A stretch of DNA of 45,062 nt. It comes from Veterinaerplatzvirus T145P1. Position 1 is the stretch's first letter, and every line of letters begins with the position of its first letter. Made by a program: the position numbers and the translations under genes. This document shows positions 8,604 through 30,329 of the stretch, piece after piece. A model generated the notes under the pieces. The model was not told where the DNA came from. It saw only the letters and a list, made by a program, of their open reading frames with translations, and did not search any database. The DNA lies in the sequence record OZ035765.1, one strand, 5' to 3'.

Positions 8604-9260
8604 ATGGCTCATCTCAGCAATGGCACGCAGGTCTTCGTAGAAGGCTCTCGCGGAGCTGCAATTGACGTAACTGCAATTTCTAACGCAGTTACCCCTGTTT
8701 TAACTGTATCTGACGCCTCTGGCTTGGTCGTTGGTGATTACTTGCTTTTCACCTCTTCTGCCTCAACTCTTCTGGCTGACAAGCAGGTTCGCGTAACTGC
8801 AATCACTGATACGTCAGTAACCGTTGAAGGTATTGATACCTCCAGCACCACTAAGTTCCCTGCTGGTCTAACTGGTGAAGTTGTTAAAATTACTTCATGG
8901 TTCGAGGTTCCTTGTGTTCAGGACGTATCTACTGACGGCGGCGAACAGCAGTTCGTTAACTTCCAGTGCTTGTCAGATGACCGCGAACAGCAGATTCCGA
9001 CTTATAAATCTGCCGTAACAAACACCTTCACCTTTGCTCACGAGTACACTAACCCGGTTTATCCGGTTCTGCGTAACTACGACGAGTCTGGCCAGGTTGT
9101 TGCGATTCGTCTGTTCGTACCTCGCGCTCAGGAAATGCGTTTACAGTCCGGCACTATCGCTTTCAACGACACCCCTACCATTGGTGTTAACGAAATCGAA
9201 ACGGTATCCATCGCAGTATCCATTCGTGGGCGCCTATCCTCTGTGGCAGCAGAAGTTTAA
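8604..9260 (+). CDS. major tail protein
   Basis: 218 aa, Ser/Thr/Val-rich; sits before chaperone pair and tape measure; terminator follows. Confidence 0.6.
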   Translation: MAHLSNGTQVFVEGSRGAAIDVTAISNAVTPVLTVSDASGLVVGDYLLFTSSASTLLADKQVRVTAITDTSVTVEGIDTSSTTKFPAGLTGEVVKITSWFEVPCVQDVSTDGGEQQFVNFQCLSDDREQQIPTYKSAVTNTFTFAHEYTNPVYPVLRNYDESGQVVAIRLFVPRAQEMRLQSGTIAFNDTPTIGVNEIETVSIAVSIRGRLSSVAAEV

Positions 9261-9266
9261 AGCACA

Positions 9267-9289
9267 AACCCTCTTAGGAGGGTTTTTTA
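9267..9289 (+). terminator. rho-independent terminator (after major tail gene)
   Basis: AACCCTC-TTAG-GAGGGTT followed by T5. Confidence 0.65.
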
Positions 9290-9370: not shown

Positions 9371-9619
9371 ATGAATAACGTTAAAAACATCATCAAGCTC
9401 GCTGCGGTTCTGTTTGCTTTTTATGCGGTAGTTCAGATTGTAGACCCAACAGGTGAGGCTGATGCCAATATCAAGGCAAACAAATATACTGTTGAATTTG
9501 CTAAGGCTGAGCGAGCATGTCAGGAGCTTGTAGGTGGCAAAGTTGACCAAATCATGAAATACGGCAAAGAGGTTTGTAAGGACTCGGCTGCTAAGATTGC
9601 AAAAGAAAACACTAAGTAA
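9371..9619 (+). CDS. hypothetical small membrane/secreted protein (moron-like)
   Basis: 82 aa with N-terminal hydrophobic segment; own promoter module at 9295-9337. Confidence 0.5.
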   Translation: MNNVKNIIKLAAVLFAFYAVVQIVDPTGEADANIKANKYTVEFAKAERACQELVGGKVDQIMKYGKEVCKDSAAKIAKENTK

Positions 9620-9657: not shown

Positions 9658-9972
9658 ATGGCAAAGTTCAAACTTTCACTGGCAGCACTCCCAGACTTTA
9701 AGCTACCAGTAAAATTTAAGCTGGCTAACGACCAGGATGTAGAGGTTATCTTTACAGTCAAGCATAAGAAAACATCTGAGTTGCAGGAGCTGCTTAGCAA
9801 GGAAGACTTGAGCACAAAAGAGCTTATTATGGCAATTGCTTCTGATTGGGATCTGGAAGAAGAATACAACGAAGATAACGTTAATGAGTTCTCAGACCTT
9901 TTCCCGGCCTCAACTGTTGCACTGACAACTGCTTACATGCAAGCGCTTGCTGGTCAGCGAGTAAAAAACTAA
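9658..9972 (+). CDS. tail assembly chaperone (G-like)
   Basis: 104 aa acidic protein directly upstream of tape measure; ends at slippery AAAAAAC. Confidence 0.6.
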   Translation: MAKFKLSLAALPDFKLPVKFKLANDQDVEVIFTVKHKKTSELQELLSKEDLSTKELIMAIASDWDLEEEYNEDNVNEFSDLFPASTVALTTAYMQALAGQRVKN

Positions 9973-10292
9973 AACGAGCGGTGTATCTACAGTACCAGTC
10001 AGAGCCAACTGATGCCGAACTGGAAGCTATTGGGATGCGCCGCTCTGATTACGAAGATGAAGAGCCTGAGGTTTTACACTTCGACGACAACATGATGAAG
10101 GCGTGGGACATTTATTGTTCAATGGCTACGCAGTGGAGAGTAGGAGCCAATGGAGCTACAGGGTTAGATTACAACGTGCTAAATTTCCTCTTTAGAGTGT
10201 ATAATGTTTCTGAAGAAGAATTGGTACTCAGCGATTTACGCATCCTTGAAGCTAAGGCTCTTGAGATGATGGATAACCTGAGAAAAAAATAA
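9658..10292 (+). CDS. tail assembly chaperone frameshift fusion (G-T-like, -1 shift at 9963-9969)
   Basis: Heptamer A_AAA_AAC sits in the 0 frame at the 3' end of the upstream ORF; the -1 frame continues into the 9981-10292 ORF. Confidence 0.55.
9963..9969 (+). other. -1 programmed ribosomal frameshift slippery heptamer (A_AAA_AAC)
   Basis: Heptamer in the 0 frame immediately before the chaperone stop; -1 frame open through 10292. Confidence 0.6.
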
Positions 10293-10314
10293 CCCGCTTC
10301 GGCGGGTTTTCTAT
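10292..10314 (+). terminator. terminator-like hairpin before tape measure gene
   Basis: ACCCGC-TTCG-GCGGGT followed by TTTC. Confidence 0.45.
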
Positions 10315-10327
10315 TATGGAGGCTTAG

Positions 10328-13309
10328 ATGGCAACAAATGAATTAGCCGGAATCACACTAGCCGTAGATGTCTCGCAAGTAGACAGGGGAACGCAATCCC
10401 TGCAAAAGTTCAGACAGGCAAACCAGCAAGCCGCTTCCGGTATTAGTGAATTCGTCAACGCTGAGCAGGTTGCTAAAAAACAGGCGAGAGATACGGCTCG
10501 TGCACTTTCTGAGCAGCAAGCGTCACTAGCTAAATTGCAAACAGCTATCGACCCAACTGCTGCAAAGTTCCGCAAGCTGCAAGAGGCAGCGGTGGGTCTT
10601 GATAAGGCATTCGCTGCTGGCGTAGTTCCTGACGAGGAATTTTTCCGCTTAGGTGAGGCGCTAGAAACTCAAAACGCAAAACTTGCTCGTTCACGTGCGG
10701 CGCTAACTGAAGAGGGTAGGGCGGCAGCGCAGGCTGCAAAGGATAAGGCAAAAGCAAAGGCTGAAGCGGATAGATTCATTGCATCACTTGAGCGTCAGGC
10801 TCAAGCGGCAACATTGACGCGTGAGGAGTACTTAAAGTTACAAGCGGCCCAGCTTGGCGTTAGTTCTCAGGCAGCACCCATCATTGACAGAATCGCCGAC
10901 GCATCACAGAAGGCAAACACCCAGTTAATTGCTCAGAGTAATGCTTTTCAGAAATCAGGATTAAGCGCCGGGCAATACAAGAATGCCATATCTCAACTAC
11001 CAGCGCAGATTACTGATATTGGCACGTCGCTTGCTGGTGGCATTCCGATTTGGCTTATTGCAATTCAGCAAGGTGGGCAGATCAAGGATGCATTTGGCGG
11101 CATTGGTAACACCTTTAGATTCGCACTTGCAGCCTTAAACCCATTCAATGTAGCTGTTGGTGTTTTGGGTGGGGTACTTGTAGCTCTTGGTGTTGGTGCG
11201 GCTCAGGCTGAAAGTGAATTCAGAGCATTAAACTCTGCCATTGCATTTTCCAACAACTCTACAATCGCATCAATCTCGCAGGTTAGAGAGTTGGTTAGCT
11301 CTGTTTCTGATGCAACAGGTGCCACCAGAGGGCTTGTGACTAGCATCGCAACAAGCCTTATTGAGCAAGGGAACCTTACGCTGACGCAGATTGACAAGAT
11401 TACTAAATCGACCGCAAGATGGGCACAGTTGACAGGCAAGGATGCGAAGGAAATTACTGGTTACTATAACCAGATTGCGAGCGACCCAATACAGGGATTG
11501 GTTGATTTGGATAAGCGCTTTAACTTCCTCACTCAGGGGCAGTTGACGACAATCGAAAACCTGAGCAAGACAAAGGGAGAGGTCGAGGCCGTTACCGCCG
11601 CAATTGACATTTTCAGCAAGTCGCAGGAAGCAAACCTTAACGACATAGCAGCGCAGTTAACTCCACTTGAGTTAGCCTGGAATGACTTTAGAAAGTACAT
11701 CTCTGACATTTGGGATGCAATTAGCCGCAGAACGGTTGGGGCGCTAAACCTGTTTGTTGACGTAATTGCCGGAACAATTGAGCAGATCAGGGTCTTCATT
11801 AACCAGGGTGACGTACTGATTGGTGAATTCGTAATTAGCGCAACGCAAGCGCTGCAAAACATTCCTGGTCTTGATGGTGTTGGTGATGATGTCATAAAGA
11901 GCCAGCAGAAGATTATCGATGCAGCCAAGAAGCAAAACCTTGAGCTAGAAAAGTCTATCAAGGAGCGCGATGCCAGAATAAGAGAAGGAGAACTTGGTTA
12001 CGTTACTCGCAGAGAAAATCAGAATACCAATGAGCAGTCAGGCACGGATGAGGAGTTTGCAAAAAGGAAGAAGGCGCTTCAGGATGAACTTGATGCGATC
12101 AAGAAGAACAGGAAAGAAGAAAATGGCAGGGTTAAAGAGCAAAGAGACCTTACAATTGGTTACGAATCTGGCGTACTGGCACTTCAGGCTCAACTCAAGG
12201 TTCTTCAGGAAAATAGGGATATTGGCGCAGTAATAAGTAATGAGCGCAAGCAGTATCTTCAGGATGAAGCCAAATTCAGGATTCTTGAGCAGAGGCAGCT
12301 TGATGGTTCAATCACCAAAGAGCAGTCAAGACTTCTTCTTGAGAAGGATAAAGTCCTCGAATTGGCAAGGCAGAAGGCTGAACTTGGAGATCAGATTGTT
12401 TTGCAGGAGCGAGCCAATAAGTTAGCTGAAGATAACCGCAAGAAGATTCTTCAGATTAACAACGAAGCAAAAAACATTGATTTGGGGGCTGGTCTATCTT
12501 CTCGTGAACAACAGAGAGCCAAAGAGATTCAGGCTCTTCAGTCCAATCAGGTTAATGCTGGTGGCGCAATTGATGACGTGGATTTTCAGCAGCTTCTCGA
12601 GGCAAGACGTAACTTTTATGCTCAGGAAGATGCGCTACGTGAAAACTGGCTTGCTGGTGTGAACCAATCCTTTGCTAATTGGGCTGAGAGCGCGAAGGAT
12701 GCATTCTCAATTGCTGGAAGTTTAACCACCACAGTATTTGAAGGCATTACTGACCAGATTACTGACCTTGTAACAACTGGTGAAACTAACTTCAGAGAGT
12801 TCACTGTTAACATCCTTAAACAGATTGCTAAGATTGCGGCTCAGCTTCTTATTGTTAAGGCTATCGAGTCTAGTTTAAGTAGCTTTGGTGGTACTGGTGG
12901 CGCGATTGGCTCTATCGCATCTGCGATTGGTGGTGGATTCGCTAACGGTGGTTATACTGGTAATGGAGGGAAATACCAACCAGCAGGAACCGTACACCGT
13001 GGTGAGTTTGTATTCACAAAAGAAGCAACTAGTCGAATCGGTGTTAAGAACCTTTACGCTCTAATGAAAGGTTACGCAAACGGTGGTGTCGTTGGTGGTC
13101 CCTCTGGCTATGCAAATGGTGGCTTGGTTTCTGGAGGCACAGATGTTAATGTTAGTGGAATTACGGTTAACGTTAATAGTGGAATTGGAAGTGACCCAGA
13201 GCAGGCCAAGGCGCTGCAAAATGGCGTTAAGGCAATTGTAGCTGAAGAGATTTCTCAGTCTTTCCAGCAGGGTGGCAGAGCTTATCAGTACCTGCGCGGA
13301 TTTAACTAA
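10328..13309 (+). CDS. tail tape measure protein
   Basis: 993 aa, long coiled-coil, Gly-rich C-terminus; canonical position. Confidence 0.9.
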   Translation: MATNELAGITLAVDVSQVDRGTQSLQKFRQANQQAASGISEFVNAEQVAKKQARDTARALSEQQASLAKLQTAIDPTAAKFRKLQEAAVGLDKAFAAGVVPDEEFFRLGEALETQNAKLARSRAALTEEGRAAAQAAKDKAKAKAEADRFIASLERQAQAATLTREEYLKLQAAQLGVSSQAAPIIDRIADASQKANTQLIAQSNAFQKSGLSAGQYKNAISQLPAQITDIGTSLAGGIPIWLIAIQQGGQIKDAFGGIGNTFRFALAALNPFNVAVGVLGGVLVALGVGAAQAESEFRALNSAIAFSNNSTIASISQVRELVSSVSDATGATRGLVTSIATSLIEQGNLTLTQIDKITKSTARWAQLTGKDAKEITGYYNQIASDPIQGLVDLDKRFNFLTQGQLTTIENLSKTKGEVEAVTAAIDIFSKSQEANLNDIAAQLTPLELAWNDFRKYISDIWDAISRRTVGALNLFVDVIAGTIEQIRVFINQGDVLIGEFVISATQALQNIPGLDGVGDDVIKSQQKIIDAAKKQNLELEKSIKERDARIREGELGYVTRRENQNTNEQSGTDEEFAKRKKALQDELDAIKKNRKEENGRVKEQRDLTIGYESGVLALQAQLKVLQENRDIGAVISNERKQYLQDEAKFRILEQRQLDGSITKEQSRLLLEKDKVLELARQKAELGDQIVLQERANKLAEDNRKKILQINNEAKNIDLGAGLSSREQQRAKEIQALQSNQVNAGGAIDDVDFQQLLEARRNFYAQEDALRENWLAGVNQSFANWAESAKDAFSIAGSLTTTVFEGITDQITDLVTTGETNFREFTVNILKQIAKIAAQLLIVKAIESSLSSFGGTGGAIGSIASAIGGGFANGGYTGNGGKYQPAGTVHRGEFVFTKEATSRIGVKNLYALMKGYANGGVVGGPSGYANGGLVSGGTDVNVSGITVNVNSGIGSDPEQAKALQNGVKAIVAEEISQSFQQGGRAYQYLRGFN

Positions 13310-28334: not shown

Positions 28335-30329
28335 ATGTTGCCTATCGAGAAGCTGGTTGCAAATTTCGATAAAGAAAGAATCAAACAGATTCAGAGAGAT
28401 TATCAGTTTGGCGAGATAACCCCTTACGAATTCCAGTGCGTAACATTTGATGCAATCGGGAAGGCTATTGGTAAGTATGAAGCGCCATTTATCGCTGACC
28501 TTTCAGTATCTGCGGGTAAGACAATCATTCTTGCCATGATTGGTAAGCGCATGGAGCAGCTTGGGCTTCCATATATGGTTCTCTCTCGCCAGTCAGAGAT
28601 TATCAGCCAGAACTCAGAAGAGCTTCGTAATTTCGGCATCCGTAATAGCGTCTATTGCGCTGGCCTTAACGTCAAATCAGTTTACTACCCAACTATAGTG
28701 GCCAGTGAGGGTACGGCAGCCAACGGCTTGTTTAAGGGGCTTGGTGACTATGTTCCGGCAGTTATCGCTATAGATGAGTGTCACATGGTCGATCACATGG
28801 ATATCGTGGAGGCTGAAGAGAATGAAGAAACATTTGAGCAAATGAGCACAAAGAAAGGCGATATGGTTTTTAAGGATGGCGTAAACACAGGATTGCTTGG
28901 TACTGGTCGTGCTCAGTACACGCTAATTATCACCGAGATGAAACGTCGTTGTCGTGAGAAGTACGGGCGTGAGCTTCGTATATTCGGTCTTACTGGCAGC
29001 CCGTATCGTAACAACGATCATATCGTCGTTAGCAACCCAAACATCCGTGGATTCTGGCGCAAAACAGTGATTCAGGTGCCAACAAATTATCTGGTTGATT
29101 TGGGCTTCGTGGTTCCTACTGTTTATGGTGAAGTTGGTGACCTGGGTTATGACCTTAGTGAGTTTGCGCCAGACGGAAGCGATGGCGTTAAAGACTTCAG
29201 CAAGAAAGAAATGGATGCAATGGCTGCAAAGATTCACGACAACCAATCAATGACCCAAAAGATAATGGGTTTTGTTGTGAAAATACTCGAGACTCGTAAC
29301 GCTGCATTGGTAACATGCGCTGGCAAACTCCATTGTGATGAGGCTGCTGCGGCACTACCAGATGGATACCCTTACGCCATCATCACAGACTCTACGGGAG
29401 AGAGGAAGCGCAGGGAGATTCTGGCTGATTGCCAGACAGGTAAGTACAAAATAATATTCCAGATTGGTTGTCTTACTACGGGCGTAAACCAGCCGCTGTG
29501 GGATACTAGCGTCATACTACGCAAGATTGGCAGCCTAACGCTTATGATTCAGCTTCTTGGTAGGGGGATGCGCAAACTTAAGAGATCTCATATTGATGCT
29601 GGTTTTCATAAAGAAGATCACCTTGTGCTGGATTTTGCTGGCGCACTTGATGATATGGCTGAGCTTTACTTTGACCCAATTATTGAAGAGATTCAGGCTG
29701 AGAAGTTTAAATCCTCAAGAAAAGGTGGCGATGAGGTTCGTCAGTGTCCGCAATGTGGATATGAAAATTCCCCATTCGCTCGTCGCTGTAGCAATAAGAT
29801 TGATGGCGTTAGATGCGATCACTTCTTTCAGTTCACAATTTGCGAAGACATTACCGACGCGCAAACTAAATCGGTAATTAAAAAGGGTTGTGGCGCTCGC
29901 AATGACATAGCAGCAAAGGTTTGCAGGGAATGCGGCGAGATGCTTAAAGACCCAAATGCTAACCTGACTGGCAAAATGTATCGTCGTGGTGATTACCTTC
30001 GTGTTTATGATTTTCAAGTTGGGTTAAGTAAGAATCAGACAGGCATTGTAGTTAAGTACAATATAATGGCTCATAACGGAGAGAGATTTAACGCTTGGGA
30101 GTTCTTTAATCCAGAATCAGACCATCGAGTTTGCAGTGTGCTCTGGAAGAACTTTTGCTTAGCTCATATTGATAATCGCACGGAAGCGGCACGAATTGGC
30201 AGGCTTAAAAATGCCAGAATGATTATGACTAACGTAGATAAGTTCCGTGCGCCAGTTCAGGTTACGCATCGCCGGAATGCAAAAGGAAAGGACGTGATAG
30301 CGTTTAAGAATTTTGGAGAATTATTATGA
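28335..30329 (+). CDS. SF2 DEAD/DEAH-box helicase
   Basis: Walker A VSAGKT, DECH box (AIDECHMV), C-terminal Cys-rich zinc-ribbon-like region. Confidence 0.8.
   Translation: MLPIEKLVANFDKERIKQIQRDYQFGEITPYEFQCVTFDAIGKAIGKYEAPFIADLSVSAGKTIILAMIGKRMEQLGLPYMVLSRQSEIISQNSEELRNFGIRNSVYCAGLNVKSVYYPTIVASEGTAANGLFKGLGDYVPAVIAIDECHMVDHMDIVEAEENEETFEQMSTKKGDMVFKDGVNTGLLGTGRAQYTLIITEMKRRCREKYGRELRIFGLTGSPYRNNDHIVVSNPNIRGFWRKTVIQVPTNYLVDLGFVVPTVYGEVGDLGYDLSEFAPDGSDGVKDFSKKEMDAMAAKIHDNQSMTQKIMGFVVKILETRNAALVTCAGKLHCDEAAAALPDGYPYAIITDSTGERKRREILADCQTGKYKIIFQIGCLTTGVNQPLWDTSVILRKIGSLTLMIQLLGRGMRKLKRSHIDAGFHKEDHLVLDFAGALDDMAELYFDPIIEEIQAEKFKSSRKGGDEVRQCPQCGYENSPFARRCSNKIDGVRCDHFFQFTICEDITDAQTKSVIKKGCGARNDIAAKVCRECGEMLKDPNANLTGKMYRRGDYLRVYDFQVGLSKNQTGIVVKYNIMAHNGERFNAWEFFNPESDHRVCSVLWKNFCLAHIDNRTEAARIGRLKNARMIMTNVDKFRAPVQVTHRRNAKGKDVIAFKNFGELL

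What the first reader, a model, noticed from the sequence alone, without database searches (positions are those of the whole stretch)
9963..9985. Programmed -1 frameshift in the tail chaperone pair
The heptamer A_AAA_AAC occupies the 0 frame just before the stop of the 9658-9972 ORF, and the -1 frame stays open into 9981-10292. This is the conserved G/GT arrangement upstream of tape measure genes.
Basis: partly seen in the sequence, partly recalled or inferred. Interest (0 to 1): 0.4.

Follow-up and report, generated by a model that had tools for sequence, protein, structure and literature searches.

The report
Tail chaperone G/GT frameshift site
This is the ordinary, well-known ribosomal -1 frameshift by which a T1-like E. 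coli phage makes a short and a long version of its tail assembly chaperone just upstream of the tape measure gene.

Summary
The heptamer A_AAA_AAC (9963-9969) sits in the 0 frame as the last two sense codons of a 104-aa ORF (9658-9972). The TAA stop follows directly, and the -1 frame is open from 9888 to 10292. The window is a Drexlerviridae (Braunvirinae, Veterinaerplatzvirus) genome. The two ORFs are Pfam Phage_TAC_4 and DUF1799 and lie between the major tail and tape measure genes. In 51 distinct relatives the site codons GTA/AAC/(C)TA are invariant, while neighbouring conserved residues use 2-4 synonymous codons. The -1-frame peptide LKRAVYL, upstream of any conserved start codon, is kept through four different Arg codons. 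Very distant family members (Aeromonas, Dhillonvirus, Ralstonia phages) also end G with A_AAA_AAC or G_GGA_AAC plus a stop. Close relatives (OzMSK, TLS tfmS) already annotate the joined product. One addition: a stable hairpin (9976-10045, -34 kcal/mol) starts 6 nt after the heptamer. It is more stable than synonymous recodings allow but has no covariation support and is clade-specific. Verdict: supported, already known, low interest. No fusion protein was measured here.

The parts
9658..9972 (+). G-like tail assembly (tape measure) chaperone ORF, 104 aa, 0 frame
   Evidence: ORF list. Pfam PF08748 Phage_TAC_4, E 6.1e-33, full-length match. phrog_569/17368. 64 database homologues are nearly all 103-107 aa with the same C-terminus. 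AlphaFold model pLDDT 85; best BFVD matches are 'tape measure chaperone' proteins.
9963..9969 (+). Slippery heptamer A_AAA_AAC in the 0 frame (last two sense codons of G)
   Evidence: Read directly. GTA 45/45, AAA 46/51 and AAC 46/46 across 51 distinct relatives, while flanking conserved residues use 2-4 synonymous codons. The same or G_GGA_AAC is found in distant family members.
9970..9972 (+). 0-frame TAA stop directly 3' of the heptamer (candidate 'shifty stop')
   Evidence: TAA is invariant in 51/51 distinct Drexlerviridae sequences, seen as the -1-frame codon CTA. A stop is also directly adjacent in Aeromonas, Dhillonvirus, Ralstonia and two metagenomic relatives.
9969..10292 (+). T segment: -1 frame read after the shift (107 codons + stop). 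Together with 9658-9969 it gives the 211-aa GT fusion.
   Evidence: Translation. Pfam PF08809 DUF1799, E 5.5e-16. phrog_17368 positions 109-210. The junction ALAGQRVKN|LKRAVYL is gapless and is the best-conserved stretch of the fusion alignment.
9976..10045 (+). Predicted RNA hairpin starting 6 nt after the heptamer (candidate frameshift stimulator). It contains the GTG at 9981.
   Evidence: MFE -34.3 kcal/mol, z -5.2 against dinucleotide shuffles. z -4.0 against synonymous recodings, 0 of 300 as stable. Retained in a 231-nt fold. No compensatory changes and no significant synonymous-site dip relative to the rest of T.
8604..9260 (+). Major tail (tube) protein gene, upstream context
   Evidence: PF08813 Phage_tail_3, E 4.5e-68; phrog_584.
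10328..13309 (+). Tape measure protein gene, downstream context
   Evidence: PF06791 TMP_2, E 1.4e-48, and PF09718 Tape_meas_lam_C, E 3.5e-20.

Best explanation
Programmed -1 ribosomal frameshifting produces two tail assembly chaperones from one message.

Most ribosomes translate 9658-9969 and stop at TAA 9970, giving the 104-aa G-type chaperone. A minority slip back one base on A_AAA_AAC. tRNA-Lys re-pairs from AAA to AAA, and tRNA-Asn from AAC to AAA. These ribosomes then read CTA AAA CGA GCG GTG ... to the stop at 10290. The product is a 211-aa GT protein (...AGQRVKN-LKRAVYLQYQ...).

By analogy with lambda G/GT, the shared G part would bind the tape measure protein. The T part would recruit the major tail protein. 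The low shift frequency would set the G:GT ratio.

The adjacent stop codon and the hairpin 6 nt downstream probably raise the output of a heptamer that is intrinsically weak in E. coli.

Shown here: the anatomy, family membership, and selection on the site and on the -1 frame. Inferred: the fusion product itself, its abundance, the roles of the stop and the hairpin, and the binding partners.
For: - **Anatomy.** Heptamer in register, -1 frame open.
- **Gene context and families**.
- **Selection on the site.** Of 65 distinct junction contexts, 56 have A_AAA_AAC+TAA and 6 have A_AAG_GTC+TAA. There is zero synonymous variation at GTA/AAC/(C)TA, against 2-4 codons per residue at the flanking Ala, Leu, Gly, Gln, Arg and Val.
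- **Selection on the -1 frame.** LKRAVYL follows the site directly and is conserved through Arg codons CGA, AGG, CGC and CGG. The Val codon at 9981 is a start codon (GTG) in only 9 of 51 distinct sequences.
- **ORF calls.** Called stand-alone T ORFs start at inconsistent positions and span 81-123 aa, whereas G ORFs are uniform.
- **Distant relatives.** Members with 22-28% G identity keep A_AAA_AAC or G_GGA_AAC followed by a stop. In two phages the -1 frame opens exactly at the heptamer.
- **Existing annotation.** Joined CDSs in OzMSK and TLS. Genome notes on T1-like phages mention the frameshift.
- **Motif efficiency.** A_AAA_AAC and G_GGA_AAC are low-efficiency but used heptamers in E. coli (PMC4066793). 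This fits the low GT:G ratio known for lambda, 30:1 (PMC5009743).
- **Hairpin.**. A different compact hairpin sits at the same spacing in the TLS-like clade, z -1.8 to -3.6.
Against: - No protein data were obtained here, and I found no direct experimental demonstration of the fusion for any Drexlerviridae phage in the searchable literature.
- A_AAA_AAC is a poor shifter in E. coli, so the yield may be very low.
- The hairpin is absent in several clades that keep the same heptamer: Rogunavirinae-type, IMM-001 and Snitter.
- The hairpin shows no compensatory pair changes.
- Synonymous variation in the hairpin is not significantly lower than in the rest of T: 7/23 against 36/82, p 0.34.
- In the window's own clade a GTG lies 8 nt after the stop, so some free T by reinitiation cannot be excluded.
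Confidence: 0.9

Rival explanations
1. G and T are two separate proteins. T is started independently at GTG 9981, either through its own ribosome binding site or by termination-reinitiation after the TAA 8 nt upstream. No fusion is made.
For: - GTG 9981 exists in the window's clade, and most records annotate two separate ORFs.
- The OzMSK annotators note an 'independent RBS'.
- The stop-to-GTG distance is short.
- Some very distant relatives have an ATG near the equivalent position.
Against: - The codon is GTT, GTA or GTC in 41 of 51 distinct relatives, yet the peptide around and upstream of it (LKRAVYL) is conserved in the -1 frame with synonymous Arg and Ala changes.
- The Shine-Dalgarno pairing is only -2.2 kcal/mol, 2 nt from the start, against -5.8 for G and -9.3 for the tape measure gene.
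- The GTG is buried in a -34 kcal/mol stem.
- This scenario does not explain the absolute nucleotide invariance of A_AAA_AAC.
Confidence: 0.06
2. The shift is made at the RNA level. RNA polymerase slips on the A6 run and deletes or adds an A in a fraction of transcripts, and normal translation of those transcripts gives GT.
For: The site contains six consecutive A (9963-9968). Three public relatives carry a 5-A run at this position, which shows that the run is length-unstable at some level, whether biological or in sequencing.
Against: - Losing one A puts T at +1, not in frame. An insertion of one A would be needed instead.
- From general knowledge, efficient bacterial transcriptional slippage needs runs of about 9 A or T, so six is short.
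- Family members with G_GGA_AAC, and the Rogunavirinae-type A_AAG_GTC, have no homopolymer run yet keep the same -1 arrangement. That points to a tRNA re-pairing mechanism.
Confidence: 0.03
3. Artefact: G and T are one gene broken by a sequencing error, or T is a decaying pseudogene.
For: Homopolymer runs are error-prone. Three records differ by one A.
Against: The same -1 split with a stop directly after the heptamer recurs in 62 of 65 distinct junction contexts. It also recurs in phages of other genera and hosts. Both halves are under purifying selection.
Confidence: 0.01

Closest known systems
Phage lambda G/GT tail assembly chaperones (-1 frameshift at G_GGA_AAG; Levin, Hendrix & Casjens 1993; Xu, Hendrix & Duda 2004, 2013, 2014, as summarised in PMC5009743)
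   Same: Two overlapping ORFs lie between the major tail and tape measure genes. The second is in the -1 frame without its own conserved start. A slippery heptamer sits near the end of G. A minor long product is expected.
   Different: - The protein families differ. These are Phage_TAC_4 and DUF1799, with no Pfam hit to any other chaperone or T family at E <= 0.1.
- The heptamer ends in AAC (tRNA-Asn) rather than AAG.
- The heptamer is the very last pair of sense codons, followed directly by the stop.
- A strong hairpin follows in this clade.
- An extra 82-aa ORF separates the major tail gene from G.
Annotated frameshift products of T1-like phages: TLS tfmS/tfmA (NC_009540) and OzMSK tape measure chaperone (PQ659294)
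   Same: They are orthologous genes: OzMSK is 91% identical in DNA, and TLS G is 54% identical in protein. They have the same GTA AAA AAC TAA site and the same joined CDS.
   Different: There is no difference in kind. The window's closest records (OZ035767, OZ035786, OZ035793) are unannotated, and most clade members annotate two 'hypothetical proteins'. TLS has a compact local hairpin instead of the long one.
IS1 insA-insB' -1 frameshift on A_AAA_AAC
   Same: It uses the identical heptamer, which is of low intrinsic efficiency in E. coli and is used to make a small amount of a fusion protein (PMC4066793).
   Different: It is a transposase, not a structural chaperone. According to that paper IS1 has no established stimulator, whereas here a stop codon is adjacent and a hairpin follows.

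Membership tests
G/GT-type tail assembly chaperone frameshift (lambda paradigm) | Pair of small ORFs located between the major tail protein gene and the tape measure protein gene | tested here: met
   Major tail gene 8604-9260, G 9658-9972, T to 10292, tape measure gene 10328-13309. One extra 82-aa ORF (9371-9619) intervenes before G.
G/GT-type tail assembly chaperone frameshift (lambda paradigm) | Second ORF overlaps the end of the first in the -1 frame and lacks a conserved start codon or ribosome binding site | tested here: met
   The -1 frame is open 9888-10292. GTG 9981 is not conserved: 9 of 51 sequences. The Shine-Dalgarno match is weak. Called T ORFs have inconsistent starts.
G/GT-type tail assembly chaperone frameshift (lambda paradigm) | Slippery X_XXY_YYZ heptamer in the 0 frame inside the overlap | tested here: met
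   A_AAA_AAC at 9963-9969.
G/GT-type tail assembly chaperone frameshift (lambda paradigm) | Site and trans-frame reading conserved among diverged relatives | tested here: met
   56 + 6 of 65 distinct contexts. Site codons are invariant. The junction alignment is gapless. Distant genera keep the arrangement.
G/GT-type tail assembly chaperone frameshift (lambda paradigm) | Both G and GT proteins are made, in a low GT:G ratio; both are needed for tail assembly and are absent from virions | not testable with these tools
   Needs protein detection and genetics. Nothing was found for Drexlerviridae in the paper searches.
Pfam PF08748 Phage_TAC_4 | Score above the curated gathering threshold over the whole domain | tested here: met
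   114.1 bits against a cut-off of 21.1; residues 1-104 on profile 1-124 of 124.
Pfam PF08809 DUF1799 | Score above the curated gathering threshold | tested here: met
   59 bits against a cut-off of 26; residues 21-101 on profile 1-80 of 80.
Lambda gpG / gpT sequence families themselves | Detectable sequence similarity to the lambda G or T Pfam families | tested here: not met
   The Pfam scan at E <= 0.1 returned only Phage_TAC_4 and DUF1799, plus sub-threshold unrelated hits. The relation to lambda is therefore one of arrangement and presumed function, not demonstrated homology.
Solved tail assembly chaperone folds (PDB) | Clear structural match of the G model to a solved chaperone | tested here: inconclusive
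-1 frameshift signals with a 3' stimulatory RNA structure (dnaX / IS3 type) | Stable structure 5-9 nt downstream of the heptamer, supported by conservation or covariation | tested here: inconclusive
   Spacing of 6 nt, -34.3 kcal/mol, z -4.0 against synonymous recoding. However, there are no compensatory changes, the synonymous-site dip is not significant, and the structure is absent in several clades. No Rfam family matched.

The most novel reading that the evidence does not exclude
Across the whole Phage_TAC_4/DUF1799 family the signal may be a distinct composite. It would consist of an intrinsically weak X_XXA_AAC heptamer that is always the last two sense codons, a directly adjacent 0-frame stop codon, and in some clades an independently acquired hairpin 6-7 nt downstream. 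Slippage might then occur mainly with the stop codon in the A site (a 'shifty stop', or E/P-site slippage) rather than by classical A/P tandem slippage. Each lineage would tune the GT dose through the hairpin.
Probability: 0.25. Interest if true: 0.35.

Novelty: already known. Interest (0 to 1): 0.15.

Why it matters
The main value is for annotation. The nearest public records of this phage are unannotated, and most relatives list two 'hypothetical proteins', so the 211-aa GT product should be added as a joined CDS. There is also a small mechanistic point. This chaperone family consistently pairs a weak AAC-ending heptamer with an immediately adjacent stop codon, and in two clades with different downstream hairpins. 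That makes it a convenient natural series for studying how phages tune a low frameshift rate. It does not change what is known about tail assembly.

Full report
**What the window is.** The first 25 kb match Veterinaerplatzvirus T145P1 records at 98.4-99.9% identity (OZ035786, OZ035767, OZ035793; all unannotated). The finding's region matches at 99.6-100%. Veterinaerplatzvirus is a genus of Drexlerviridae, subfamily Braunvirinae, the T1-like siphoviruses. The window is therefore essentially a whole T1-like coliphage genome.

**Checking the observation.** The sequence reads ...CAG CGA GTA AAA AAC TAA AAC GAG CGG TGT... in the frame of the ORF 9658-9972.
- The heptamer A_AAA_AAC occupies 9963-9969 in X_XXY_YYZ register.
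- The TAA stop is at 9970-9972.
- The -1 frame is open from 9888 to the TAA at 10290-10292, and the listed ORF 9981-10292 is in that frame.
- The conceptual shift product is 211 aa, with the junction ...ALAGQRVKN-LKRAVYLQYQ....
- A scan of all ORFs of at least 60 aa on both strands found 41 in-frame heptamers. Only one has a longer -1 extension, at 29706, and it lies in a spurious ORF nested in the real gene 28335-30329. The site under study has 107 open codons after it and lies one codon from the stop.

**What the genes are.**
- The upstream ORF is a full-length member of Pfam Phage_TAC_4 (E 6e-33).
- The downstream reading is DUF1799 (E 5.5e-16).
- They lie between a Phage_tail_3 tube protein gene (8604-9260) and a TMP_2/Tape_meas_lam_C tape measure gene (10328-13309). 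Lambda-like minor tail genes follow.
- PHROG 17368, a 213-position family, is matched by G over positions 1-107 and by T over 109-210, so fused proteins of this type are already in phage databases.
- An AlphaFold model of G (pLDDT 85) matches BFVD models named 'tape measure chaperone'. These include 210-aa and 236-aa long forms alongside 108-aa and 129-aa short forms.
- The T model has no meaningful solved relative.

**Comparative evidence for frameshift decoding.** I collected 88 loci from annotated phages, IMG/VR and metagenome assemblies.
- *Site frequency.* Among 65 distinct junction contexts, 56 carry A_AAA_AAC followed by TAA. Six (Rogunavirinae type) carry GCA AAG GTC TAA. Three have a five-A run.
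- *Codon usage.* In a codon alignment of 51 distinct fusion sequences (G identity 38-100%), the conserved residues just upstream (Ala, Leu, Ala, Gly, Gln, Arg) use 2-4 synonymous codons each. Val102 is GTA in 45/45, Asn104 is AAC in 46/46, and the next -1-frame codon is CTA in 51/51, which means the 0-frame stop is always TAA. Synonymous diversity resumes at once afterwards: Arg107 is CGA, AGG, CGC or CGG, Ala108 uses four codons, and Val109 uses four codons.
- *What this shows.* The nucleotide string A AAA AAC TAA is itself under selection. The peptide LKRAVYL is selected as protein in the -1 frame, in a stretch that precedes any conserved start codon.
- *ORF calls.* Gene callers give the stand-alone T ORF inconsistent starts and lengths of 81-123 aa. 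G homologues are nearly all 103-107 aa and end at the same residue.
- *Alignment.* The fusion alignment is gapless across the junction, which is its best-conserved segment.

**Very distant family members.**
- Aeromonas phage pAEv1818 and Dhillonvirus B2 (G identity 28%) end G with GAA AAA AAC TAA. In both, the -1 frame opens exactly at the heptamer.
- A Ralstonia phage (22%) and two metagenomic contigs end with G_GGA_AAC directly followed by TGA or TAG.
- One contig has A_AAA_AAC three codons before the stop.
- A tblastn search with the fusion finds 1135 phage records. Of these, 894 cover at least 80% of it, and every listed row that covers both halves does so as two pieces.

**What is already known.**
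- Phage OzMSK (91% identical here) carries a joined CDS noted as the 'frameshifted product of tail assembly chaperone'. Phage TLS annotates tfmS (joined), tfmA and tfmB.
- Genome notes on T1-like phages Skenny and Stevie mention the conserved frameshift.
- The lambda paradigm is summarised in PMC5009743. G:GT is 30:1. G binds the tape measure protein, T binds the major tail protein, and neither is present in virions.
- Sharma et al. (PMC4066793) class A_AAA_AAC and G_GGA_AAC as low-efficiency heptamers in E. coli that IS elements such as IS1 nevertheless use. These are exactly the two heptamers seen in this chaperone family, which fits a need for little GT.

- *Support.* A hairpin spanning 9976-10045 starts 6 nt after the heptamer. 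It has an MFE of -34.3 kcal/mol and z -5.2 against dinucleotide shuffles. It persists in a 231-nt fold. It is far more stable than 300 synonymous recodings of the same peptide (z -4.0, none as stable). The TLS-like clade has a different, compact hairpin (GGGCGGTTT...AAACCGCCC) at the same spacing, with z -1.8 to -3.6.
- *Against.* Rogunavirinae-type phages, IMM-001, Snitter and others keep the heptamer without any excess structure. There are no compensatory pair changes in either clade. The apparent dip in synonymous variation over the hairpin is not significant against the rest of T (7/23 versus 36/82, p 0.34).

I therefore rate the hairpin a plausible, clade-specific stimulator (about 50%), not an established one.

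**Rival explanations.**
- *Independent initiation or reinitiation at GTG 9981.* This is physically possible in this clade. But the Shine-Dalgarno match is weak and badly spaced (-2.2 kcal/mol, 2 nt), the codon is inside the stem, and this scenario explains neither the invariant heptamer nor the conserved -1-frame peptide upstream of it.
- *Transcriptional slippage.* It is unlikely on six A. It also cannot apply to relatives with G_GGA_AAC or A_AAG_GTC.
- *Sequencing artefact.* It is excluded by recurrence in dozens of independent genomes.

**Verdict.** This is the ordinary G/GT-type programmed -1 frameshift of T1-like phages, already annotated in relatives. Membership in the lambda protein families themselves is not supported, so the relation to lambda is one of arrangement and presumed mechanism. 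The unmeasured steps are the existence and amount of the fusion protein and the contribution of the adjacent stop and the hairpin.

Noticed in passing
L002 (MN840485, phage 2725-N35) ~1157-1180; L067 ~1497; L068 ~1501: Three public relatives from different clades have GTAAAAACTAAA, with five A instead of six. G therefore reads through, and T lies at +1. In 2725-N35, G is annotated as a 117-aa protein. These are probably homopolymer sequencing errors, but real variants are not excluded.
   Followed up: partly
L013-L018 and duplicates (Rogunavirinae-type relatives), junction GCA AAG GTC TAA: This clade lacks the canonical heptamer and retains only the A_AAG tetramer one codon earlier. The -1 frame and the LKRAVYL peptide are unchanged and the predicted fusion has the same length. 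A_AAG is the most shift-prone tetramer in E. coli according to PMC4066793.
   Followed up: partly
window 10291-10308 and 9266-9285: There are two terminator-like GC hairpins with T tracts. One lies directly after the T stop and before the tape measure gene start (AACCCGCTTCGGCGGGTT TTCTATT). The other lies directly after the major tail gene. Equivalent sites are annotated as terminators in EC3a and MM01.
   Followed up: partly
window 9371-9619: An 82-aa ORF with a hydrophobic N-terminus sits between the major tail gene and G. It matches phrog_22925 (unknown function) and has no Pfam hit. In AugustePiccard, MM01 and RobRod40 the slot holds a longer, 387-nt ORF (noted as an rtp34 homologue in MM01). 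In SU57 the major tail gene ends 83 nt before G with nothing annotated between. The slot looks variable and moron-like.
   Followed up: no
window 10283-10289: A second in-frame slippery run, A_AAA_AAA, sits one codon before the stop of the T reading frame (AGA AAA AAA TAA). The -1 frame is open for only 12 codons after it. There is no evidence that it is used.
   Followed up: no
window 10178-10260: The 3' half of the T segment shows unusually low synonymous variation within the Braunvirinae clade: 1-3 variable third positions per 11 codons, against 9-10 in G. The cause is not known; recent exchange or another constraint are possibilities.
   Followed up: no
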